Source: Isurus oxyrinchus (Eukaryota). Taken from it: a stretch of DNA of 64,000 nt. Under the pieces are notes generated by a model. It worked only from the letters and a program-made list of their open reading frames with translations. It searched no databases and had not been told where the DNA came from. How positions within the stretch are numbered: the first letter of the stretch is position 1; every line of letters begins with the position of its first letter. Location: assembly GCA_026770705.1 (NCBI GenBank), contig JANJGN010000010.1:154814001-154878000 (forward strand), read 5' to 3'. The position numbers and the translations under genes are program-made. Shown one piece after another: positions 3,234-64,000 of the stretch.

Positions 3234-5124
3234 CATTAGTCGTCTCAATTTCTCTGCTCCTCTCACCCATTCTAACCTCTCTCTCTCTCTGAACTTACTG
3301 CACTCCGTTCTCTCAGGTCCAACTCTGACATTGTCATCAAACCCGCTGACAACGGTGGTGCTGTTGTTGTCTGGCGCACTGACCTCTACCTCGTGGAGGC
3401 TGAGCGCCAACTCGCAGACACTTCCTCCTACCTCTCCCTGGACCATGACCCTAACATTGAACATCAAGCCATTGCTTCCAGGACTGTCACTGACCTCATC
3501 TCCTCTGGAGATCTTCCTCCCACAGCTTCCAACCTGATAGTCGCCCAACCTTGGACGGCCCGCTTCTACCTCCTACCCAAAATCCACAAACAGGACTGTC
3601 CCGGCAGTCCGATCGTGTCAGCCTGTTCCTGCCCCACGGAACTCATTTCTCATTATCTTGATTCCCTTCTCTTTCCCTTTGTCCAGTCCCTTCCCACCTA
3701 CATCCGTGATTCCTCTGACACCTTACGTCACATCAACAATTTCCAGTTCCCTGGCCCCAACTGCCTCCTCTTCACCATGGACATCCAATACCTCTACACC
3801 TCCATCCCCCACCAGGATGGTCTGAGGGCCCTTAGCTTCTTCCTCAAACAGAGGCCCGAACAACCCCCATCCACCACTACTCTCCTCCGTCTGGCTGAAC
3901 TTGTTCTCACAATCAACAATTTGCCTTAAACTCCTCTCACTTCTTCCAAATAAAAGGTGTGGCTATGGGTACCCACATGGGCCCCAGCTATGCCTGTCTC
4001 TTTATGGGATATGTGGAACATTCCTTGTTCCAGTCCTACTCCGGCCCCCTCCCACAACTCTTTCTCTGGTACATCGATGATTACTTCGGTGTTGCTTCAT
4101 GCTCTTGTTGGGACCTGGAAAAATTTATTATTTTGGTTCCAATCTCCACCCCTCCATCATTTTCACATGGTCCATCTCTGACACTTTCCTTCCCTTCCTT
4201 GATCACTCTGTCTCAATTTCTGGTGATGGACTGTCCACCAATATCCATTACAAGCCTACCGACTCCCACAGCGACCTCAACTACAGCTCCTCACACCCCG
4301 CTTCCTGCAAGGACTCCATCCCATTCTCTAAGTTCCTTCACCTCCGTCGCATCTGTTCTGATGATGCTACCTTCAAAAACAGTTCCTCTGACATGTCCTC
4401 CTTCTTCCTTAACCAAGATTTTCCACACATGTCATTGACAGGGCCCTCAACGTGTCCGGCTCATCTCCCGTGCATCTGCCCTCACGCCTTCTCCTTCCTC
4501 CCAGAAGCATGATAGGGTCCACCTTGTCCTCACTTATCACCCCACCAGCCTCCGCATTCAAAGGATCATCCTCCGCCATTTCCGCCAACTCCAGCATGAT
4601 GAAACCACCAAACACATCTTCCCTTCACCCGCTCTGGCGGCATTCCATAGGGATCGTTCCCTCCAGAACACCTTGGTCCACTCCTCCATCACCCCCTACT
4701 CCTCAACCATGACCTACGGCACCTCCCGATGCCCACGCAAAAGATGCAACACTTGCCCCTTCATTTCCTCTCTCATCACCGTCCAAGGGTCCAAACACTC
4801 CTTTCAAGTGAAGCAGTATTTCACTTGCATTTCCCCCAACTTAGTCTACTGCATTCATTGCTCTCAATGCGGTCTCCTCTACATTGGAGAGACCAAATGC
4901 AGACTGGGCGACCGCTTTGCAGAACATCTTCGGTCTATCCGCAAGCATTACCCAGACGTCCCTGTCGCTTGCCATTTTAACACTCCACCCTGCTCTCTTG
5001 CCTACATGTCCGTCCTTGGCTTGCTGCATTGTTCCAGTGAAGCTCAACGCAAACTGGAGGAACAGCACCTCATCTTCTGACTAGGTACTTTACAGTCTTC
5101 CGGACTGAATATTGAATTCAACAA
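3234..5124 (+). mobile_element. Penelope-like element copy A1: 5'-truncated, frameshifted RT + GIY-YIG endonuclease
   Basis: ORFs 3393-3929, 3959-4438, 4099-4512 and 4673-5080 give PLE motifs: FYLLPKIHK, DIQYLYTSIPH, GVAMGT-MGPSYA, YIDD, YKPTDSH, CxxC, and NLVYCIHC…YIGETK…RFAEH. Confidence 0.93.
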
Positions 5125-5621
5125 AAACAGAATTACCTGGAAAAACTCAGCAGGTCTGGCAGCATTGGCGGAGAAGAACAAAGTTGATGCTTCGAGTCCT
5201 CATGACCCTTCAACAGAACTGAGTAAAATTAGGAGAGGGGTAAAATATAAGCTGGTTTAAGGTGGAGGTGGGGTGAGAGAAGTGGTGGGGGGGGGTTGTA
5301 GGGACAAGCAAGCAGTGATAGGAGCAGATAATCAAAAGATGTCACAGACAAAAGAACAATGAGGTGTTGAAGGTGGTGATATTATCTAAGAGAATGTGCT
5401 AATTAAGAATGGATGGCAGGACACACAAGGTACAGCTCTAGTGGGGGTGGGGTGAAATGAGTAACAGGGCATAAGAGGTATAGATTTAAAAATAATGGAA
5501 ATAGGTGGGAAAAGAAAAATCTATATAAATTTTTGGAAAAAACAAAAGGGAGGGGGAAGGAACGGAAAGGGTGTGGGGATGGAGGAGGGAGTTCAAGATC
5601 TAAAGTTGTTGAATTCAATAT
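5123..5621 (-). repeat. Inverted Penelope 3' terminal segment (pseudo-LTR)
   Basis: Reverse complement of ~7433-7938, including the hammerhead-like motif. Confidence 0.92.
5182..5220 (-). ncRNA. Hammerhead-like motif, degenerate (GAAG/CATC)
   Basis: Reverse complement is AGTTCTGTTGAAGGGTCATGAGGACTCGAAGCATCAACT. Confidence 0.5.
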
Positions 5622-7952
5622 ATCGTTGCATTCTGAGATCCACACTCAGTGCCATGTGCCGCCATATGTACACACTCGACCTCTCCCTCCAGCATCACCA
5701 CCGCACCCTTTTTCAAAGCTGCGCGTGCCCCCAGTTTTATTTTATTCTTCGTCTCATCCGACGCCTCAACAAGAAACTTTTTCTCTTTCTCTCAAGTGCT
5801 AAGGAACACAAGCTCCAACAACTCATCGACACCAACATCAATCTAGGACCCTCCACCCCTGCCTGTCCCTCCGTCCCCACCCCATCTTCCAATCCCAGCC
5901 CCAGCCGTGTATTCACTATACCCCCTGACTTTCCCCTCTCCGATGCTGAACGTTCAGTGCTCAGCAAAGGACTTAGTTTCATACCCTTACGCCCTCATCT
6001 CAATGAATTTCAGGCTCGGCACGATGCTGAACTCTTCTTCCGCCATCTTCGTCTCCGGGCTCACTTCTTTGGGCTGGAGTCCTCTCCCCGTTCAACGGAT
6101 CCTTTTACCCATCTCCAATATTCTCCCTCCACCTGGACCCCTCCCTCTGGATTCTTACCTTCTCTTGATCTTTTCATTGAGAACTGTCGGTGTGACATTA
6201 GTCGTCTCAATTTCTCTGCTCCTCTCACTCATTCTAACCTGTCTCTCTCTGAACTTACTGCACTCCGTTCTCATAGGTGTGGCTATGGGTACCCGCATGG
6301 GCCCCAGCTATGCCTGTCTCTTTATGGGGTATGTGGAACATTCCTTGATCCAGTCCTACTCCGGCCCCCTTCCACAACTCTTTCTCCAGTACATCGATGA
6401 TTACTTCGGTGCTGCTTCATGCTCTCGTCTGGAACTGGAAAAATTTATTAATTTTGCTTCCAATCTCCACCCCTCCATCATTTTCACGTGGTCCATCTCT
6501 GACACTTTCCTTCCCTTCCTTGACCTCTCTGTCTCAATTTCTGGTGATAGACTGTCCACCAACATCCATTACAAGCCTACCGACTCCCACAGCTACCTCG
6601 ACTACAGCTCCTCACACCCCGCTTCCTGTAAGGATTCCATCCCATTCTCTCAGTTCCTTTGCCTCCGTCGCATCTGTTCTGATGATGCTACCTTCAAAAA
6701 CAGGTCCTCTGACATGTCCTCCTTCTTCCTTAACCGAGGTTTTCCACCCACAGTCGTTGACAGGGCCCTCAACCGTGTCCGGCCCATCTCCCGTGCATCC
6801 GCCCTCACGCCTTCTCCTCCCTCCCAGAAACACGATAGGGTCCTCCTTGTCCTCACTTATCACCCCACCAGCCTCAACATTCAAAGGATCATCCTCCGCC
6901 ATTTCCGCCAACTCCAGCATGATGCCACCACCAAACATATCTTCCCTTCACCTCCCCCCGGCGGCATTCCATAGGGATTGTTCCCTCCGGGAGACCTTGG
7001 TCCACTCCTCCATCACCCCCTCCTCCTCAACCCCCACCCACGGTACCTCCCGATGCAAACGCAAAAGATGCAACACCTGCCCCTTCACTTCCTCTGTCCT
7101 CACCGTCCAAGGGCCCAAACACTCCTCTCAAGTGAAGCAGCATTTCACTTGCATTTCCCCCAACTTTGTCTACTGCATTCGTTGTTCCCAATGCGGTCTC
7201 CTCTACACTGGAGAGACCAAATGCAAACTGGGCAACCACTTTGCAGAACACTTGCGGTCTGTCCATAAGAATGACCCAAACCTCCCTGTCGCTTGCCATT
7301 TTAACACTCCACCCTGCTCTCTTGCCCACATGTCTGTCCTTGGCTTGCTGCCTTGTTCCAGTGAAGCCCAACGCAAACTGGAGGAACAACACCTCATCTT
7401 CCGACTAGGCACTTTACAGCCTTCCGGACTGAATATTGAATTCAACAACTTTAGATCTTGAACTCCCTCCTCCATCCCCACCCCCTTTCCGTTTCTTCCC
7501 CCTTCCTTTTGTTTTTTCCAATAATTTATATAGATTTTTCTTTTCCCACCTATTTCCATTATTTTTAAATCCATACCTCTTATGCCCTGTTAGTCTCACT
7601 TCACCCCACCCCCACTAGAGCTGTACCTTGTGTGCCCTGCTATCCATTCTTAATTAGCACATTATGTTAGATATCACCACCTTCAACACCTCTTTATTCT
7701 TTTGTCTGTGACATCTTTTGATTATCTGCTCCTATCACTGCTTGCTTGTCCCTACAACCACACCCCCCCCCCCCAACTTCTCTTCTCTCCCCCCACCACC
7801 TTAAACCAGCTTATATTTTACCCCTCCCCTAAGTTTACTCAGTTCTGTTGAAGGGTCATGAGGACTCGAAACGTCAACTTTTTACTTCTCCGCTGATGCT
7901 TCCAGACCTGCTGAGTTTTTCCAGGTAATTCTGTTTTTGTTTTGGATTTCCA
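5622..7952 (+). mobile_element. Penelope-like element copy A2: N-terminal region, internal deletion, RT C-half, GIY-YIG and 3' UTR
   Basis: LSDAERSVLSKGLSFIP…LRLRAHF (PLE N-terminus), then GVAMGTRMGPSYA…YIDD…FLD, then VYCIRC…YTGETK…GLN, with stop at 7461 followed by a ~490 nt 3' UTR. Confidence 0.93.
7841..7879 (+). ncRNA. Minimal type I hammerhead ribozyme-like motif in the Penelope 3' end
   Basis: AGTT-CTGTTGA-A-GGGTC-ATGAG-GACTC-GAAA-CGTC-AACT: stem I AGUU/AACU, stem II GGGUC/GACUC, GAAA, palindromic ACGU helix III, GUC cleavage triplet. The core has A6 replaced by U. Confidence 0.7.
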
Positions 7953-8071
7953 CTTGCCTGCTACCCAATGAATCTTACTAGAAAGGGAGTATAAGCATCA
8001 GATGATGACAGAACGGTGCTCAACTGGAATGCCCTCTTATAGCTGAACAGCTTGGCACCACTGACTGTATA

Positions 8072-11296: not shown

Positions 11297-14142
11297 TAAG
11301 ACCATAAGACAAAGGAGCAGAAATTAGGCCATTCGCCCCATCGAGTCTGCTCCGCCATTCAATCACGGCTGATAAGGTTCTCAACACCATTCTCCCGCCT
11401 TCTCCCCATAACCTTTGATCCCCTTACCAATCAAAAACCTATCTATCTTGGTCTTAAATACACACAATGACCTGGTCTCCACAGCCTTCTGTGGCAATGA
11501 ATTCCATAGATTCACTACTCTCTGGCTAAAGAAGTTTCTCCTCATCTCTGTTCTAAAAGGTCTTCCCTTTACTTTGAGGCTGTGCCCTCGGGTCCTAGTC
11601 TCTCCTACTAATGGAAACATCTTCCCCACGTCCACTCTATCAAGGCCTTTCAGTATTCTGTAAGTTTCAATCAGATCCCCCCTCATCCTTCTAAACTCCA
11701 TCGAGTATAGACCCAGAGTCCTCAAACGTTCCTCATATGTTAAGCCTTCCATTCCTGGGATCATTCTTGTGAACCTCCTCTGGACCCTCTCCAGGGCCAG
11801 CACATTCTTCCTGAGATATGGGGCCCAAAATTGCTCACAATATTCTAAATGTGGTCTGACCAGAGCCTTATAAAGCCTCTGCAGCACATCCCTGCTTTTA
11901 TATTCTAGTCCTCTCGAAATAAATGCCAACATTGCATTTGCCTTCCTAACTACCGACTCAACCTGCAAGTTAACCTTAAGAGAATCCAGGACTAGGACTC
12001 CCAAGTCCCTTTGCACTCCAGATTTCTGAATTCTCTCCCCATTTAGAAAATAGTCTACGCCTCTATTCTTCCTATCAAAGTGCATGACCTCACACTTCCC
12101 CATGTTGTATTCCATCTGCCATTTCTTTGCCCATTCTCCTAACCTGTCCAAATCCTTATGCAGCCTCCCCACCTCAATACTACCTGTCCCTCCACCTATC
12201 TTTGTATCGTCTGCAAACTTAGCCAGGATGCCCTCAGTTTCTTCATCTAGATCATTAATGTATAAAGTGAAAAGTTGTGGTCCCAACACTGACCCCTGCG
12301 GAACTCCACTAGTCACCAGCCGCCATCCTGAGAAGGACCCCCTTATCCCCACTCTCTGCCTCCTGCTAGACAGCCAATCTTCTATCCATGCTAGTACCTT
12401 ACCTCTAACATCATGGGCTCTTATCTTACTGAGCAGCCTCCTGTGCAACACCTTGTCAAAGGGCTTCTGGAAGTCCAAGTAGATAACATCCATTGGCTCT
12501 CCTTTGTCTAACCTACTCGTTACCTCCTCAAAGAATTCTAACAGATTTGTCAGGCATGACTTCCCCTTAATGAAACCATGCTGACTTTGTCCTATTTTAC
12601 CATGCACTTCCAAATATACTGCAATCTCATCCTTAATAATGGACTCTAAAATCTTACCAACGACCGAGGTCAGGCTAATCGGCCTGTAATTTCCCGTCTT
12701 TTACCTCACTCACTTCTTAAACGGGGGTGGTAGTGGTTACATTAGCGATTTTCCAGTTCTCTCGGACCCTCCCTGACTCCAGTGATTCCTGAAAGATCAC
12801 CATTAACGCCTCCACTATCTCCTTCAGAACTCTGGGGTGTAATCCATCTGGTCCAGGTGATTTATCCACATTCAGACCTTCAGTTTTCCTAGCACCTTCT
12901 CCTTGGCAATGGCCATCATACTCACCTCTGCCCCCCGACTCTCTTGAACTTTGGGGATGTCACTCGTGTCTTCCACCATGAAGACTGATGCAAAGTACCT
13001 ATTCAGTTCCTCTGCCATTTCTTTGTTCCCCACTACTACTTCTCCAGCGTCATCTTCCAGCGGCCCAATGTCCACTTTTGCCTCTCTCTTACCCTTTATA
13101 TATCTAAAAAAAAACTCTTGCAATCTTCTTTTATATTACTGGCTAGTTTACCCTCATATTTAATCTTCTCCCTCCTTATTTCTTTTTTAGTTGTCCTCTG
13201 TTGGTCTTTGTAGGTTTCCCAATCCCCTGGTTTCCCACTGCTCTTCGTCGCATTGTATGCTTTATCTTTAGCTTTTATGCTGTCCCTGACTTCCCTTGTC
13301 AGCCATGGTTGCCTCGTCCTCCCTTTAGTATGCTGTTGCTTCTTCCTAGGGATGAATTTTTGCTGGATATTTAGCTCCCAGTCCTGATTCCCTTGCAGCC
13401 ATGTCTCTGTGATGTCCACCACATCATACCTGCCAATTTCAATCTGCACCACAAGCTCATTTACCTTGTTTCGTAAAGTGCATGCATTCAGATACAACAC
13501 CTTCAGTCCTGTATTTCCTATCCCTTTCCAAACACTCTGTCCTATTTTGTGTTCTGGAGACTTTAATAGCCTCTCCTGGGCTCTCCTTTCTTTTCAGTCT
13601 TTTCATAATTTTCCATGAAGTTGAATCCACTCCCCCACACGCTAACCTGCTGCTTTGTTTCCCATTAGTCATACTGCTTGGAGTTATACCCTTCCCTTCC
13701 CCCCCACTTTCTAGTTTAAAACCTGTTGACCAGCCTATTTACCCTTTTCGCTAGAACACTGGTCCCAGATCGGTTCAGGAGACCACTGTCCCAATGGTAC
13801 AGATCCCTCCTGTTCCAATACTGATGCCTGTGTCCCACGAAATGGAACCCTTCTTTCCCACACCACTCCTTTAGCCACGTGTTTACTTCCCTTATTCTTG
13901 TGTCCCCATGCCAATTTGGACGTGGCTTGGGTAGTAATCCGGAAATTAAAACCCTTGAGGACCTGTTCTTTAATTTAGTTCCTAGTTCCTGATAATCCAC
14001 AAACAGGTCCTCTTTCCTAGTCTTACCTATGTTATTTGCCCCGATGTGGACCACAACAACTGGATCCTCCCCCTCCCTCTCCAATATCCTTTCAAGCCGG
14101 TCAGACATGTCCCTCACCCTGGCACCGGGCAGGTAACATACC
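11297..14142 (-). mobile_element. Young CR1 LINE (partial ORF1 esterase; ORF2 with endonuclease deletion; open 410-aa RT portion), inserted in an older CR1 3' fragment
   Basis: 13716-14117 gives VVVHIGANNIG…ISGLLP…DSGLLNRSG (SGNH esterase ORF1). 13096-13500 gives LYLNA…ITETWL fused to a downstream part. 11381-12613 is the RT (QHGF, YLDFQK, GVPQGSVLGP, FADD). There is a tcttatgg repeat tail, and the host CR1 resumes at ~14146. Confidence 0.95.
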
Positions 14143-16544: not shown

Positions 16545-16793
16545 AAAGCAAAATATTGGAGATGCTGGAAATCTGAAATACAATGCAGAAAATGCTCAGA
16601 TTATCAGGCAGCATCTGTGGAGAAAGAAAGAGAGTTAATATTTCAGGTCTTTGACCTTTCACCAGATCTTTCATTCTGATGATAGGTCACAGACCTGAAA
16701 CGTTAACTGTTTGTCTCACTCTACAGATGCTGCCACATGCACACTATTTCCACTATTTTCTGTAATCACTTAGCATCTGCATCTTATTTTGCT
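16545..16793. repeat. Palindromic (fold-back) mini-element made of two divergent Penelope termini, each with a hammerhead core
   Basis: Left arm aaaagcaaaatattggagatgctgg…ggcagcatctgtggag…ttaatatttcaggtctttgacctttcaccaga is the inverse of the right arm tctgatgataggtcacagacctgaaacgttaac…ctctacagatgctgcc…agcatctgcatcttattttgct. Confidence 0.8.
16673..16708 (+). ncRNA. Minimal hammerhead motif with canonical core
   Basis: CTGATGA-T-AGGTC-ACA-GACCT-GAAA-CGTT-AAC. Antisense partner at 16633-16666 reads CTGGTGA-A-AGGTC-AAA-GACCT-GAAA-TATT-AAC. Confidence 0.7.
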
Positions 16794-24316: not shown

Positions 24317-24538
24317 GTTTTAAGATAAAAGCAAAATACTGCGGATGCTGGAAATCTGAAATAAAAGCAGAAAATGCTGGAAAAACTCAGCAGGTCGAAA
24401 AGCATCTGTGGAGACAGAAATAGCTTTAATGTTTCAAGTCCGTATGGCTTGAAATGTTAACTCTGTTTCTCTCTCCACACATGCTATCAGGCCTGTTGTG
24501 TTTTTAGAACATTTTCTGTTTTTGTTACCTATTATATT
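24317..24538. repeat. Palindromic Penelope-terminus mini-element inserted in the Gypsy 5' LTR
   Basis: 10-bp TSD AGTACTACAT (24307-16 and 24539-48); absent from the 3' LTR; arms fold back around gtttcaagtc-cgtat-ggcttgaaat. Confidence 0.85.
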
Positions 24539-28074: not shown

Positions 28075-29040
28075 GAAACATAAAATACTGCAGATGCTGG
28101 AAATCTGAAGTAAAATCAGAAAGTTCTGGAAACACACAGCATATGTGGAGAGAGAAAAACGGAGTTAATGTTTCAGAGTGACTATGATGTAACAGGTTTA
28201 ATGCAAGTAAATACATGGGCAGGGAAAGGTGGGGTGGAGTGGAAGAACAAAAAAAGAGAAGGTCTGTGATAGTGTTGAGAATAGAAGAGATTGAAGAGAT
28301 TATGGTGTTAAGGCAAAAGGAGATGTTAATGAGACAAGTAAAGAAACAAAAGTTTTGTGCTAGAGGAGGTGTAAATGGGAATGCAGAATCGTCTAAAAAT
28401 TTGGGGCGGAGATTATATTCTTAAATTCAATGTTGAATCCAGAAGGCAATAAAGTGCCTAATTTAAAGATGAAGTCCTGTTCCCTGAGCTTATGTTGGGC
28501 TTCACTGGAACAGTGTAGAAGTGGATTCAAAGTGGGAGGAGAATCAAAAGCTACCAGAAGCTCAATGTCACACTTGCAGAATGAATGGAGGCATTTTGTA
28601 AAGCGGTCACCCTACCTGCATTTGATCTCTTTAGTGTAGAGGGGGCTGCATCATGAGTAGTCAATTCAGTATACTCAATTGAAAATAAAAGTAAATCGCT
28701 GTTTGGAAGGAGTGTTTGGGGGTCCTGGATAGGGGGAGGGGAGGAGGAAAGGACAGGTGTTGCATCTCCTGCACTTGCATAGGAAAGTGCTGTGGGAAGG
28801 GATGGGGGAGTTGGGGATGAGTGAGGAGTGGAATAGGGTCTTGCAAAGGGTACAGCCCCTTTGGAAAGCCAAAAATGGAAGGGGAAGATGTGTTTGGTGG
28901 TGGCATCACCATGGAGATGGTGGAAATGCCGGAGGATGATCCATTGAATGTGGAGGCAGGTAAGGCAGAAGGTGAGGACAAGGACAAGGCGAGCCCAAAA
29001 GTGGAAACATGAGACTGGACACATGGGTGAGTCACAGTGC
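28075..29040 (-). mobile_element. Older Penelope-like fragment (GIY-YIG region and 3' end)
   Basis: HIQWIILRHF…DATTKHIFP, CKCRRCNTCPF, and terminus aaaatactgcagatgctggaaatctgaa. Confidence 0.8.
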
Positions 29041-41063: not shown

Positions 41064-41120
41064 AAACAGAATTATCTGGAAAAACTCAGCAGGTCTGGCA
41101 GCATCGGCGGAGAAGAAAAG

Positions 41121-41159
41121 AGTTGACGTTTCGAGTCCTCATGACCCTTCGACAGAACT
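41121..41159 (-). ncRNA. Minimal hammerhead-like motif (CUGUCGA core)
   Basis: Reverse complement is AGTT-CTGTCGA-A-GGGTC-ATGAG-GACTC-GAAA-CGTC-AACT. Confidence 0.7.
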
Positions 41160-42919
41160 TGAGTTAGAGTCGAAGAAAGAGTTGAAATATAAGCTGGTTT
41201 AAGGTGTGTGTGTGTTGGGTGGGGGGGGGGGGGGGGGGGGGGGGGGGGGGCGGAGAGAGAGAGAGAGGTGGGAGGGGGTGTGGTTGTACGGACAAACAAG
41301 CAGTGATAGAAGCAGATCATCAAAAAATGTCAACAACAATAGTACAAAAGAACACATAGGTGTTAAAGTTGGTGATATTATCTAAACAAATGTGCTGATT
41401 AAGAATGGATGGTAGGGCACTCAAGGTATAGCTCTAGTGGGGGTGTTTTTTTTAAATAATGGAAATAGGTGGGAAAAGGAAAATCTTTATAATTTATTGG
41501 AAAAAAAAAGGAAGGGGGAAACAAAAAGGGGGTGGGGATGGGGGAGGGAGCTCACGACCTAAAGTTGTTGAATTCAATATTCAGTCCGGAAGGCTGTAAA
41601 GTGCCTAGTCTGAAGATGAGGTGTTGTTCCTCCAGTTTGCGTTGGGCTTCACTGGAACAATGCAGCAAGCCAAGGACAGACATGTGGGCAAGAGAGCAGG
41701 GTGGAGTGGTAAAATGGCAAGCGACAGGGAGGTTTGGGTCATTCTTGCGGACAGACCGCAGGTGTTCTGCAAAGCAGTCGCCCAGTTTATGTTTGGTACG
41801 TTTGTTGACAGGGCCCTCAACCGTGTCCGGCCCATCTCCCGCGCATCCGCCCTCACGCCTTCTCCTCCCTCCCAGAAACATGATAGGGTCCCCCTTGTCC
41901 TCACTTATCACCCCACCAGCCTCCGCATTCAAAGGATCATCCTCTGACATTTCTGCCAACTCCAACATGATGCCACCACCAAACACATCTTCCCTTCACC
42001 CCCCCTATCGGCATTCCGTAGGGATCACTTCCTCCGGGACACCCTGGTCCACTCCTCCATCACCACCTACTCCTCAACCCCCTCCTATGGCACCACCCCA
42101 TGCCCACGCAAAAGATGCAACACCTGCCCCTTCACTTCCTCTCTCCTCACCGTCCAAGGACCCAAACACTCCTTTCAAGTGAAGCAGCATTTCACTTGCA
42201 TTTCCCCCAACTTAGTCTACTGCATTCGTTGCTCCCAATGTGGTCTCCTCTACATTGGAGAGACCAAACGTAAACTGGGCGACCGCTTTGCAGAACACCT
42301 GCGGTCTGTCCGCAAGAATGACCCAAACCTCCCTGTCGCTTGCCATTTTAACACTCCACCCTGCTCTCTTGCCCACATGTCTGTCCTTGGCTTGCTGCAT
42401 TGTTCCAGTGAAACCCAACGCAAACCGGAGGAACAACACCTCATCTTCCGACTAGGCACTTTACAGCCTTCCGGACTGAATACTGAATTCAACAACTTTA
42501 GGTCGTGAGCTCCCTCCCCCATCCCACCCCCTTTCTGTTTCCCCCTTCCTTTTTTTTTCCAATGAATTATAAAGATTTTCCTTTTCCCACCTATTTCCAT
42601 TTTTTTAAAAAAAATTCTTTTTTTTTAAATTTTAAAAAAATCTTTTATGCTCTCCCCACCCCCACTAGAGCGCCTTGAGTGCCCTACCATCCATTCTTAA
42701 TTAGCACATTCGTTTAGATAATATCACCAACTTTAACTTTAACACCTATGTGTTCTTTTGTACTATTGTTGTTGACATCTTTTGATGATCTGCTTCTTTC
42801 ACTGCTTGTTTGTCCCTACAATCACACCCCCACTCCACTTCTCTCTCTCTCTCTCTCCGCCCCCCACACACACACCTTAAACCAGCTTATATTTCAACTC
42901 TTTCTTGGACTCGAACTCA

Positions 42920-42958
42920 AGTTCTGTCGAAGGGTCATGAGGACTCGAAACGTCAACT
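42920..42958 (+). ncRNA. Minimal hammerhead-like motif (CUGUCGA core)
   Basis: AGTT-CTGTCGA-A-GGGTC-ATGAG-GACTC-GAAA-CGTC-AACT. Confidence 0.7.
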
Positions 42959-43055
42959 CTTTTCTTCTCCGCCCATCCTGCCAGACCTGCTGAGTTTTTC
43001 CAGGTAATTCTGTTTTTGTTTTGGATTTCCAGCATCTGCAGTTTTTTTGTTTTTA

Positions 43056-43890
43056 TCCTGAGTCTTTTACTGTTCCTGATGGTCACGCATTCCCTTTCTG
43101 CCTGTGTAATCTTCTGCAGTATGACCACCTTGCTAAACGTGCTATCCATGACTTGCTCAGCATCATGGATACTCCACAATGAGTCCACCCGCAGCTCCAG
43201 CTCCGAAATCTGGTTAGCTAGAAGCTGCATTTGAATACACCTTCCGCCCACATGGTCAACAGGGGCGCTGGAAGCGTCCCTCATTTCCACATCCTGCAAG
43301 AGGAGCATACCATGGGTCTGAGATCTCCTGCCATGACATCCCTCTCGATTAAGCTGGTTACTCCCTTAAGAAATACGCTAGCTCGGGGCCTTATTTATGT
43401 CAGCTAGGAACCTTGTTTCTTGACTAATTATACTTGTACAGTACTACTCTATACTTTTTTTTAGCTCCTACCTCAGTATTAAGCAATTAATAACTTTAAT
43501 AAATTGAAAAATACTCACCAGGATTTACTCATTAATCAGCTGCTTTTTTTTTATCCACTTTTAGAAGAGTGTCCCTCACAGGTCTGGTGCATTCCTGAAG
43601 GTACTGCCTCTCTTTTTTATTGGTTTGAGAAGGGAGGTAGGGATGGAAACATTACAGCAATACAATGTTTGGGGCTAGTCCGTTTGTTGACAGTGGGTCC
43701 TCCTCGATCCCCTTCTGAGTTGCGGTGTCTGCAGTGACTTCTCCCAGAATGCTTCCATCACTTCTCACTACCGCCCTCTGTTGGATGCTCTTCCTCTTGT
43801 TGAGTGCAAGAGTCCTTTCTCCTCGATCCCGAGTCGCGGTGTCTACGGTGACTTCTCCCAGAATGCTTCAGTCACTTCTCACTAACGCCC
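43056..43890 (-). mobile_element. CR1 5' portion (probable 5' UTR and ORF1 N-terminus)
   Basis: DHVGGRCIQMQLLANQISELELRVDSLWSIHDAE resembles the CR1 ORF1 zinc finger/leucine zipper. Imperfect ~75-bp direct repeat at ~43700-43778 and ~43820-43892. Confidence 0.65.
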
Positions 43891-54504: not shown

Positions 54505-55984
54505 TTAGCGCATGAAAATTTCCCTGGTTACATAGGCGATGTATGAGTAGAGAAATTAGCATATGGAAAATGTACCAGTTAGACTCTGCCGCTGTAACAA
54601 GCAGTTTTATAAAACCTGAAGCAATCAAATCTCAAATCATCTGATTCAACTGTAGGGATATGCTATTTTCTGTGCACTTCAAGATTCACAGCTAGCTCAA
54701 GCAAAATATTTCAGAAGTATGAAACTAAACTGTCTCTCCTCCCCCCCAAGAAAATCACAGCTCATTTTATCTCACATTACAACTCATTGGATATTTTATA
54801 TGTAGTATGTGCACTCGAGTCACAGAGGCTATTTTCAATTACCAAACACGTTAGAATGTAAATTAAAGCCCCCCTGTTTTCATTTTTGACTCTCCAGCGA
54901 TTTAAAGACCAAGTGTTTTGAAACTTGCTCTTTTAAATCACTTGTGGTACAGCTTGGAACTTGCCAGGCTCTTTCAGAAAGCAATGGCACCTCCCTCCCT
55001 CAACCAATGCTGTCCATCTGCAGCCCTGCAGCAAATGATAAAGGTGAGAACATTGGAAAGTGAAATAAATACCGTCAAATTTCTCAAGTACAAAATCAAC
55101 TACAAATGCTGGAACACTGAATTAGTGAAGTGACCGTCGTTTCCCTTCACCTTTCCTCTCTAATTTTTCAACCTTACTAAAATACTTGTTCATGTTTTAG
55201 TTCTGAGAAACGAGTATGCACCCAAAATGTTAACTTGTCCTCTCACGTTACAGACTGATCTGCTGTGTGTTTCCAGCAATTTTTTGTTTTTTTAAAAAGT
55301 CTTAGATCAAGTTAGCTTGGCCATCATCTTCCATCAGCAAATAGAACCCTTCTGCATTACATCTACCTGACCAAAATAACACACCAGAGGCAAGGACCAG
55401 TGGTTTCAATGTAAATGCAAGGACTGGAACACCCAGCTTGATCAGTGTATGCATTTGCCTCATGAATGTAATTTATTTTTGTTTCATTTCAGCAGGATGC
55501 ACAGAAGGGAATCAGACTGAGGAGAGTGTCTACCTTCCTGCTCAAGTGTGCTTCTTTCTAATCAAGTATGCTAGTGCCCTTCAGGTGGACTTCTCCTGCC
55601 TTTCACACAGACGCAAGCATGGAAAATAAGACCAAGAAAGACATTCCAAGTGCAGAATACTAAAGTGAATGTGGCACAACATTATAAATCAGGATTTCAT
55701 AAACTGGATTTATAGTAGTATTATGCTGGAAATGATGTATCTGACATACAGATCTTCCAAATTTGGTCAGGATTAAAGGAACTTCAGGATAAGGCTATGG
55801 GCAACATAGCAGCCCACCTTACCTGGCTCCAGGTATACAAGTCTGTAGATGTAACGTATCCTTTTTAAAGCTCACTACATGGTGGATGCCTCTCAAGCAG
55901 CTCACCAGCTTTCTGACTTAGGCACTTTTCATCAATTAACCTTGGCTGTCAACTCTAGTGTCAGTGTGGCTCCCTCTCACATCT

Positions 55985-59119: not shown

Positions 59120-59885
59120 AGCGATGACTGAGATTCATTCCCCATGATATCAAGGAACAGCTGAAGATACTGGATACTGAAAAGGCTATAGGCCCTCACA
59201 ACTTTCCGGCAGTACTGAAGACTTGTGCTCCAGAACTAGCCATGCCCCTAGTCAAAACAAAAACAGAATTACCTGGAAAAACTCAGCAGGTCTGGCAGCA
59301 TCGGCGGAGAAGAAAAGAGTTGACGTTTCGAGTCCTCATGACCCTTCAACAGAACCCAATGCTCCTAGCCAAACTGCTCCAGTACAGCAACAACGTTGGC
59401 ATCTACCTGGCAATGTGGAAAATTGCCCAGGTACATCCTGTACATAAAAAGCAGGACAAACCCAACCCAGCATATTACTGGCCCATCAGTCTACTCTCGA
59501 TCATCAGCAAAGTGATCGAAGGGTTATCGACAGTGCTATCATGTGGCACTTACTCAGCAATAACCTGCTCACTGATGCTAAGTTTGGGTTCCTCCAGGGC
59601 CACTTAGCTCCTGACCTCATTACAGCCTTGGTCAAAAGAACCGAACTCAAGAGGTGAAGTAAGAGTGACTGCCCTTGACATCAAGGCAGCATTTGACCAA
59701 GTGTGGCATCAAGGAGCCCTAGAAAAGCTGAAGTCAGTGGGAATAAGGGGAAAAAATATTGACTGGTTGGAATCATACCTAGCACAATGGAAGATGGTTG
59801 TGGATGTTGGAGGTCAATCATCTCAGGCCCAGGACATCACTACAGGAGTTCCTCAGATTAGCGTCCAAGACTCAACGGTCTTCAC
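59120..59885 (+). mobile_element. L2/CR1-group LINE internal RT fragment (8072-9227 family)
   Basis: WKIAQVHPVHKKQDKPNPAYYWPISLLSIISKVIE and ALDIKAAFDQVWH…GVPQ. Confidence 0.85.
59257..59356 (-). mobile_element. ~100-bp Penelope terminus insertion (hammerhead at 59318-59355 plus 3' end)
   Basis: Flanked by ccatgcccctagtcaaa (59240-56) and caatgctcctagccaaa (59357-73). Confidence 0.85.
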
Positions 59886-63824: not shown

Positions 63825-64000
63825 AAAGTGAAATACTGCGGACCTGGAAATCTGAGATAAAAATAGAGTGCTGGAAATACTAAGCAGGTCTGCTAGCATC
63901 TGTGGAGAGGGAAAGAGAGTTTACGTTTTAAGTCAAATATGACGCTTCTTCAGAACTGAAGAATCATTTAATGAAGAAGTCATATTCTACTCAAAACGTT
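63825..64000. repeat. Palindromic Penelope-terminus mini-element, cut by the window end
   Basis: Left arm aaatactgcggacctggaaatctg…cagaact (minus-strand core CTGAAGA, 63918-63957), then the start of the mirror arm atgaagaagtcatatt…aaaacgtt. Confidence 0.65.

What the first reader, a model, noticed from the sequence alone, without database searches (positions are those of the whole stretch)
7841..7879. Hammerhead ribozyme with a fixed non-canonical core (CUGUYGA, A6->U) in the youngest Penelope family
Seen: five copies (5182-, 7841+, 41121-, 42920+, 59318-) read AGUU-CUGUYGA-A-GGGUC(AUGAG)GACUC-GAAA-CGUC-AACU; the 5182 copy is further mutated. Older relatives here keep CUGAUGA or CUGAAGA and a different but still paired stem II (AGGUC/GACCU), which is covariation. 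Established: Penelope-like elements carry minimal type I hammerheads whose palindromic helix III needs dimerisation, and A6 is a conserved core base. Inference: a recently active family has fixed a core variant, so it is either an unusual active hammerhead or an attenuated fold kept as a cis signal.
Basis: partly seen in the sequence, partly recalled or inferred. Interest (0 to 1): 0.7.

Follow-up and report, generated by a model that had tools for sequence, protein, structure and literature searches.

The report
Core-variant hammerhead ribozyme in Penelope retrotransposon
A large, old family of jumping genes in a cartilaginous-fish-like genome carries the usual self-cutting RNA motif with one normally invariant letter changed, probably weakening it, which makes the family a natural test of whether these elements need to cut their RNA at all.

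Summary
The motif is real: a minimal type I hammerhead in the pseudo-LTR of a Neptune-type Penelope-like element, with U at core position 6 in 5 of 5 copies. These come from three insertions and two subfamilies. U6 is a family trait, not decay. In contigs of two public runs (60,990 and 3,048 laid) no A reaches 2% at that place; C reaches 4.8% in one run. Between the two subfamilies the hammerhead plus tail differ at 2 of 96 columns, against 41 of 357 upstream, and the one hammerhead difference is at the free position 7. 'Recently active' is not supported: arms of one insertion differ by 3–7% and all ORFs are broken. The covariation evidence is thin. Published data put A6 changes at low but non-zero activity and show that a PLE protein inserts uncleaved RNA regardless of hammerhead catalysis. 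Best reading (0.5): an attenuated ribozyme, tolerated or favoured because templates must stay uncut, with the fold still under selection. Cleavage was not tested. New variant of a known kind; the key 2017 paper could not be read.

The parts
7841..7879 (+). Minimal type I hammerhead, subfamily B. Stem I 7841-7844/7876-7879; core C3-A9 7845-7851 (U6 = 7848, U7 = 7849); extra base 9a 7852; stem II 7853-7857/7863-7867; G12-A14 7868-7870; palindromic A15.1-C-G-U16.1 7871-7874; C17 7875; predicted cut 7875|7876
   Evidence: numbering against the PLE consensus in PMC4209133 Fig. S3
7433..7952 (+). 3' pseudo-LTR of insertion B, ending about 75 nt downstream of the hammerhead
   Evidence: self-BLAST; alignment; junction
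5622..7461 (+). 5'-truncated, frameshifted RT/GIY-YIG ORF of insertion B; internal deletion of part of the RT near 6275-6278
5120..5621 (-). Inverted pLTR arm of insertion B, with the hammerhead at 5182-5220 (U6U7; A15.1->G and G16.2->A)
3234..5124 (+). Copy A: RT/GIY-YIG ORF remnant of the same family, ending at the ORF/pLTR junction; it has no pLTR, so its hammerhead state is unknown
41064..41797 (-). Inverted arm of insertion C (end of ORF plus pLTR), hammerhead 41121-41159 (U6C7)
41805..43057 (+). Direct arm of insertion C: GIY-YIG domain with CX4CX2C linker and CCHH motif, and pLTR with hammerhead 42920-42958 (U6C7)
59253..59356 (-). Solo fragment of about 103 bp (hammerhead 59318-59356, U6U7, plus tail) inside a LINE-like repeat, flanked by a diverged 12-13 bp direct repeat (read by eye)
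16633..16708 (.). Older, different family: two inverted arms with hammerheads (A6 at 16670-16708+, G6 at 16633-16671-), stem II AGGUC/GACCU, GUU or AUU triplet
63918..63959 (-). Older pLTR hammerhead with A6A7 core, decayed (G12->A, mismatch in stem II)
55197..55235 (+). Further decayed older pLTR hammerhead with A at position 6
   Evidence: 19.4 bits, E 0.003, rough

Best explanation
This is the pLTR hammerhead of a Neptune-type Penelope-like family in which a master lineage replaced A6 by U and went on multiplying. Shown: the anatomy, the family-wide U6, and conservation of the rest of the motif between two subfamilies. Inferred: U6 lowers cleavage (roughly 10-100-fold by analogy with other A6 changes) without abolishing the fold. 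A copy that still joins ORF, hammerhead and tail can only come from an RNA not cut at that hammerhead, since reverse transcription starts in the tail downstream. Weaker cutting therefore costs the element little and may raise the share of usable templates. The other core bases, both stems and the palindrome are kept because slow, protein-assisted dimer cleavage or the fold itself still matters in the RNP.
For: U6 in 5 of 5 copies from 3 insertions and 2 subfamilies. In 60,990 contigs of run X1 and 3,048 of run X15, the only other letter listed at 7848 is C (4.8% and 0.8% of depth); no A row at the 2% threshold, and no row at C3, U4, G5, G8, A9, G12-A14, A15.1, U16.1 or C17. B-versus-C differences: 41 of 357 columns upstream against 2 of 96 in hammerhead plus tail (Fisher p=0.003); the single hammerhead difference is at position 7. 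13 of 13 tail-bearing fragments among the 14 stretches shown span the predicted cut site, by eye. Literature: natural A6C variant kobs <0.1/min (PMC3088659); A6 changes 10-100-fold against >100-fold for C3, G5, G8, G12, A14, A15.1 (PMC4075628 citing its ref. 9); single and double mutants in the CUGA region have low activity except the C3-G8 swap (PMC9901934). In the anole PLE, hammerhead-dead mutants insert normally in vitro, uncut RNA is the main template, and cleavage needs the PLE protein (PMC11167929). Naiad PLEs thrive without canonical hammerheads (PMC8557442).
Against: No cleavage data exist for this RNA. The activity figures come from other hammerheads and mostly other substitutions. 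The conservation test compares one pair of lineages and treats sites as independent; for the hammerhead alone (1 of 39) p=0.10. Contig shares are depth-weighted, drop rare variants and look uneven: at one CpG, C>T is 7.2% while the partner G>A is not listed, and the C7 state seen in the window is not listed. An A6A7 class could be clipped instead of counted. Folding does not single out U6: canonical A6U7 and A6C7 misfold as much or more in this context. That weaker cutting was favoured, not merely tolerated, is not shown.
Confidence: 0.5

Rival explanations
1. Catalytically dead relic. U6 knocked the ribozyme out, the family spread because cleavage is dispensable, and the 39 nt look conserved only because too few master generations have passed or because they overlap another signal (protein-binding or RT-start tail, splice or translation signal).
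For: Insertion is independent of hammerhead catalysis in vitro (PMC11167929). Minimal PLE hammerheads are weak even with a canonical core (PMC4209133). The tail is as conserved as the hammerhead (1 of 57 against 1 of 39). Position 6 appears to drift on to C in part of the family (4.8%). U6U7 allows two competing pairings that bury the palindrome or C17. No U6 copy has a same-strand U6 partner nearer than about 18 kb.
Against: The 50 columns just upstream collected 11 subfamily differences while the hammerhead collected 1, at the free position (p=0.010). A dead core should also drift at C3, G5, G8 and G12, and none is listed. The natural A6C variant keeps detectable activity.
Confidence: 0.23
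2. A fully functional variant. With the PLE protein, or in the dimer, U6 is accommodated, and the family cleaves as well as canonical PLE hammerheads.
For: All other core bases, G10.1-C11.1, the palindrome and a GUC triplet are intact. A6 stacks on G5 and points away from the loop's minor-groove face (PMC11300833) and is among the more tolerant core bases. The anole PLE hammerhead works only with protein, so naked-RNA mutagenesis may overstate the defect.
Against: No rescue of CUGA-region mutants among all double mutants of a type III hammerhead. All 56 representative PLE hammerheads in PMC4209133 Fig. S3 have A6, though their descriptor required it. No start or end pile-up was seen, but contigs cannot show one.
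Confidence: 0.2
3. Substrate-only passenger. In a double hammerhead each core cuts the partner strand, so U6 RNAs could be cut in heterodimers by A6 hammerheads of other PLE families while cutting nothing themselves.
For: The dimer topology follows from the published model (PMC4209133). An older A6 family here has the same stem I arms and the same start of the palindrome (63918-63959). The U6 family has the GUC triplet.
Against: It does not explain why the enzyme half (C3-A9, stem II, G12-A14) is conserved. The A6 relatives in the window are far more decayed (74-77% identity). A 4-bp helix III between different transcripts is weak.
Confidence: 0.07

Closest known systems
Minimal type I hammerheads of metazoan Penelope-like elements (Cervera and de la Pena 2014, PMC4209133; Lunse et al. 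2017, not readable here)
   Same: pLTR position downstream of an RT/GIY-YIG ORF; 4-bp helix I; 5-bp helix II opened by G10.1-C11.1; extra base between 9 and 10.1; no helix III loop, palindromic 15.2-16.2; NUH triplet
   Different: U, not A, at position 6 as the family state. All 56 representatives in Fig. S3 have A6, none is from a cartilaginous fish, and the core covariation described in the text read is U3-A8.
Bacteriophage Bcep176 A6C hammerhead (Perreault et al. 2011, PMC3088659)
   Same: Natural substitution at core position 6; low but detectable activity
   Different: C rather than U; a single phage locus, not a high-copy retrotransposon family
PAc (Poseidon) element of the green anole (Frangieh et al. 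2024, PMC11167929)
   Same: pLTR hammerhead upstream of a tail where reverse transcription starts; insertion at the element's own ORF/pLTR junction, as seen at 5124
   Different: Penelope/Poseidon clade; C3 and G8 are conserved and its position 6 was not seen in the text read. Here the ORF has the CX2-5CxxC linker of Neptune/Nematis, and no ATG opens stem II.
Neptune-type PLEs (Craig et al. 2021, PMC8557442)
   Same: C-terminal GIY-YIG with CCHH, CX4CX2C linker, inverted 5'-truncated arm next to the direct copy
   Different: No RT tree was built; all copies here are broken

Membership tests
PLE minimal type I hammerhead | Lies in the pLTR of an element with RT and GIY-YIG | tested here: met
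PLE minimal type I hammerhead | Core CUGANGA with A at position 6 | tested here: not met
   U6 in 5 of 5 copies; no A row at 2% in two runs. It is therefore filed as a variant, not a canonical member.
PLE minimal type I hammerhead | Other core bases (C3, U4, G5, G8, A9, G12, A13, A14, A15.1, U16.1, H17) | tested here: met
   intact in 4 of 5 copies; the 5182 copy has A15.1->G
PLE minimal type I hammerhead | Extra base between 9 and 10.1; G10.1-C11.1; helices I and II pair | tested here: met
PLE minimal type I hammerhead | Palindromic 15.2-16.2 for an intermolecular helix III | tested here: met
   CG in 4 of 5 U6 copies
PLE minimal type I hammerhead | Compensatory stem changes across families | tested here: inconclusive
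   2 of 11 pairs on 7 distinct rows; 100 of 500 shuffles reach that count
PLE minimal type I hammerhead | Self-cleavage after NUH as a dimer | not testable with these tools
   The two raw-read runs were DNA and held 2 and 0 reads; contigs cannot show ends
Rfam hammerhead families | Match to a curated covariance model | tested here: not met
   None of 13 matches at E<=5 is a hammerhead family. The A6 copy at 16670 is missed too, so this reflects the minimal form and not U6.
Neptune-type PLE | C-terminal GIY-YIG endonuclease with CCHH motif | tested here: met
   Pfam GIY-YIG in 2 of 5 PLE pieces scanned, 22.6 bits (at the cut-off) and 20.1 bits (below it); CxxC-H-H by eye
Neptune-type PLE | CX2-5CxxC zinc-finger linker (absent from Penelope/Poseidon) | tested here: met
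   CX4CX2C before the GIY-YIG in the translations; criterion from PMC8557442
Neptune-type PLE | PLE-type RT and placement in the Neptune clade | tested here: inconclusive
   RT-like motifs by eye in broken frames; no Pfam hit for the 217-aa piece; no tree built
Non-LTR retrozyme | Non-coding tandem repeats with a hammerhead in consecutive units | tested here: not met
   Copies are inverted arms or solo and sit behind an ORF; definition from bioRxiv 10.64898/2026.07.22.740005

The most novel reading that the evidence does not exclude
A high-copy Penelope-like lineage has turned its hammerhead from a stand-alone enzyme into a protein-dependent switch or a non-cutting RNP signal. It fixed a core change that cripples naked hammerheads, kept every other core base and stem under selection across subfamilies, and spread widely. 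Either the element's own protein rescues a U6 core, or evolution selected against cutting while keeping the fold.
Probability: 0.2. Interest if true: 0.75.

Novelty: new variant of a known kind. Interest (0 to 1): 0.45.

Why it matters
What the hammerhead does in Penelope-like elements is open. It is nearly universal in canonical PLEs, yet weak in vitro and dispensable for insertion in the one reconstituted system. A family that multiplied to very high copy number with a substituted core base, while holding the rest of the motif, is a natural experiment that separates catalysis from fold. It also shows that descriptors requiring CUGANGA miss whole high-copy families.

Tried and rejected
No whole genome is held for this window, so no per-copy census could be made. 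Rfam gave no hammerhead match. Two metagenome scans, one for the family motif with positions 6-7 free and one for a looser motif, found 0 matches each. Raw-read DNA runs X21 and X22 held 2 and 0 reads and are no test. Folding of the pLTR end is no more stable than shuffles (z from -1.6 to +2.0 over 7 sequences). In-silico variation of positions 6 and 7 does not single out U6: the gap from the active dimer to the best dimer fold is 12.6 kcal/mol for U6U7, 8.1 for U6C7, 7.1 for A6A7, 13.9 for A6U7 and 16.1 for A6C7. Post-insertion decay was rejected as the source of U6, since it is shared by independent insertions and dominant in other runs. 'Recently active' was rejected. No U6 hammerhead was seen in viral contigs (0 of 40 with stem II). 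Earlier scan notes returned nothing. Literature searches listed no paper on an A6U hammerhead or a shark PLE hammerhead by title or abstract start; 'hammerhead' plus 'A6U' gave one paper, on twister ribozymes. Lunse et al. 2017 is not held and may already include this family. Passages of PMC11014351, PMC2553840 and PMC6155905 gave nothing on A6; PMC5785220 was an unrelated paper.

Full report
Observation. The 39 bases at 7841-7879(+) fit the minimal type I hammerhead of Penelope-like elements (PLEs). They give a 4-bp stem I, core C3-U4-G5-U6-U7-G8-A9, an extra A before a 5-bp stem II opened by G10.1-C11.1, G12-A13-A14, the self-complementary A15.1-C-G-U16.1, and C17, with the cut predicted at 7875|7876. 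A descriptor with position 6 free finds 5 sites in the window (4 U6, 1 A6; the 5182 copy fails because of A15.1->G) and none in 60 shuffles. Rfam has no hammerhead among 13 matches at E<=5 and also misses the A6 copy.

Context. The motif sits near the end of a pseudo-LTR behind a broken RT/GIY-YIG ORF. Pfam GIY-YIG hits 2 of the 5 PLE pieces scanned, at and just below the cut-off. The CX4CX2C linker and CCHH motif point to the Neptune type by the criteria in PMC8557442 (passages); no tree was built. The best named protein relatives are from skates and a shark, at 63-71% identity over partial matches. I take the host to be a cartilaginous fish on that basis; this is an inference. The five copies are three insertions. 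B has an inverted arm at 5120-5621 and a direct arm ending at 7952; C has arms at 41064-41797 and 41805-43057; the third is a solo fragment at 59253-59356. No U6 copy has a same-strand U6 partner closer than about 18 kb, so these loci cannot form the cis dimer.

Is U6 a family trait? B and C are distinct subfamilies. Counting columns where both B arms agree, both C arms agree and the two differ gives 41 of 357 in the upstream pLTR, 1 of 39 in the hammerhead and 1 of 57 in the tail. Fisher p is 0.003 for hammerhead plus tail, 0.10 for the hammerhead alone, and 0.010 for the hammerhead against the adjacent 50 columns. This is one lineage pair, so the p values are only a guide. In the ORF end the B/C difference is 2 to 8 of 225 columns. 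The one hammerhead difference is at position 7, the free core position. So U6 predates the B/C split and elements went on inserting with it.

Beyond the window, no genome is held. Of 24 runs listed, 14 hold half or more of the sampled words, under two organism labels. I laid 4 of them on 7780-7980. Two raw DNA runs held 2 and 0 reads and are no test. Run X1 (about half read) laid 60,990 contigs and run X15 laid 3,048. At 7848 the only other letter listed is C, at 4.8% and 0.8% of summed depth; A does not reach 2%. No other core position is listed. These shares are depth-weighted, contigs drop rare variants, and the table is visibly uneven: G12->A at a CpG is missing although its partner C->T is 7.2%, and C7 is not listed. 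A one-step A6U7 class should have been seen as the C variant was. A two-step A6A7 class could be clipped, although depth is roughly symmetrical about the motif (11.1 and 13.2 million in the bins 7843-7849 and 7871-7877). I conclude that U6 is the dominant state of a very large family; 'fixed' in the strict sense is not proven, and position 6 may be drifting on to C.

Age. The family gives the most alike repeat pairs of 200 nt or more in the window (91-92%; other repeats 87% and below; an older PLE 66-67%). It is not recent. The two arms of B differ at 15 of 279 columns (33 of 499 with the low-complexity middle) and those of C at 16 of 500 (47 of 704). Suppose the arms were identical at insertion and the epaulette shark rate of 7e-10 per site per generation applies (95% CI 1.4-14.1e-10; PMC10587355, passages). 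That gives about 23-48 million generations, or 11-24 million at the upper bound. The rate is from another species and CpG sites inflate the figure, but every ORF here is also broken. Active masters elsewhere cannot be excluded.

Covariation. On 8 window copies (7 distinct), 93.5% of cells pair. Two of 11 pairs change on both sides: 10.1-11.1 in the 16.6-kb element and the helix III palindrome in one of its arms. 100 of 500 shuffles reach that count and 13 of 500 reach the covariation score. This agrees with the fold but rests on one older insertion.

What A6U should do. In PMC4209133 (main text parts 1-2 of 4, supplement parts 1-2 of 3) all 56 representatives have A6, though the descriptor demanded it, and minimal hammerheads cleave weakly even as dimers. 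PMC3088659 (section 8 and passages) reports a natural A6C phage hammerhead with kobs below 0.1 per minute. PMC4075628 (passages) cites 10-100-fold inhibition for A6 changes against more than 100-fold for C3, G5, G8, G12, A14 and A15.1; I did not see its source. PMC9901934 (passages; supplements listed, not read) found low activity for single and double mutants in the CUGA region except the C3-G8 swap. PMC11300833 (passages) shows A6 stacked on G5. PMC11167929 (parts 1-2 of 4; supplement text search empty, and figures may hold more) shows three things for the anole PLE: its hammerhead cuts only with the PLE protein, catalytic mutants insert normally in vitro, and reverse transcription starts in the tail downstream. 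In the window, 13 of 13 tail-bearing fragments among the 14 stretches displayed run through the predicted cut site, judged by eye. Folding adds little. U6U7 allows competing pairings, about 2 kcal/mol per monomer more than A6A7, but A6U7 and A6C7 misfold more. This matters mainly for choosing controls. In viral contigs, 0 of 40 U6-pattern hits and 13 of 121 A6-pattern hits form stem II (p=0.04; unequal patterns, truncated A6 scan).

Verdict. Most likely (0.5) this is an attenuated ribozyme, tolerated or favoured because integration uses uncut RNA, with the remaining core and stems still selected. A dead relic (0.23), a fully active protein-rescued variant (0.2) and a substrate-only partner in heterodimers (0.07) remain. 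Anatomy, family-wide U6, subfamily conservation and old age are shown; all statements about activity are inferred. It is built like a PLE minimal hammerhead but fails the A6 criterion, so it is a new variant of a known kind. Nine searches on hammerheads and PLEs listed no report of it. Lunse et al. 2017, the largest survey of these motifs, could not be read (seen only as summarised in PMC6765202, passages), so novelty is provisional. Of the bioRxiv retrozyme preprint I read part 1 of 5 and passages, not its supplements; it sampled one cartilaginous fish using canonical and minimal descriptors.

Noticed in passing
window 7885-7930 and the same stretch in the other U6 copies: Downstream of the hammerhead the U6 family has CCG before an ATG where older families have an acceptor-like CAG after a pyrimidine tract. 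Ten codons later it has AG|GTAATT (a donor-like site, or an in-frame stop) where older families read through. The family may have rewired its intron or ORF start together with the core change.
   Followed up: no
window 7847-7851 and 7874-7878: In the U6U7 form, G5-A9 is the exact reverse complement of U16.1-C17 and the next three bases. The double change from an A6A7 core could have arisen in one template-switch step, and this pairing would bury the scissile bond (seen in the dimer fold). A 5-bp match can be chance.
   Followed up: partly
window 5120-5124: The tail of insertion B joins copy A exactly at A's ORF/pLTR junction with about 5 bases of microhomology, like the preferred cut site reported for the anole PLE endonuclease.
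   Followed up: partly
window 59253-59356: The solo fragment starts at stem I and is flanked by a diverged 12-13 bp direct repeat. The target sequence downstream resembles the start of the motif, so microhomology may have set its 5' end.
   Followed up: partly
run X1 on window 7841-7878: 5 of 12 listed joints with letters between go from 7876-7878 (just 3' of the predicted cut) to 7841-7847, each at about single-contig depth. The kind of joint was not shown, so tandem duplication and inversion could not be told apart.
   Followed up: no
run X1, place 7848: A C6 variant at 4.8% of depth (85 contigs) may be a further subfamily, matching the substitution known from phage Bcep176.
   Followed up: no
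window 16607-16734 and 24349-24526: Short palindromic elements made of two inverted pLTR ends of older families, joined near the hammerhead; they give weak miRNA-family matches in Rfam.
   Followed up: no
window 28408-28984 (-): An older, diverged PLE ORF remnant (47% amino-acid identity to the C-copy endonuclease region) with a decayed pLTR tail near 28082-28176.
   Followed up: no
window 11381-12700 (-): A 438-aa open frame of a non-LTR (LINE-type) reverse transcriptase, Pfam RVT_1 E 2e-30, unrelated to the finding.
   Followed up: no
loci L041, L046, L062, L077, L079, L085, L090, L097, L101, L154, L159, L160, L161: Viral contigs with a canonical core, an extra base after A9, a paired stem II and the same short palindrome; only L041 has a stem I of 3 bp by my test. 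They may be other-topology or dimer-type hammerheads in phages.
   Followed up: no
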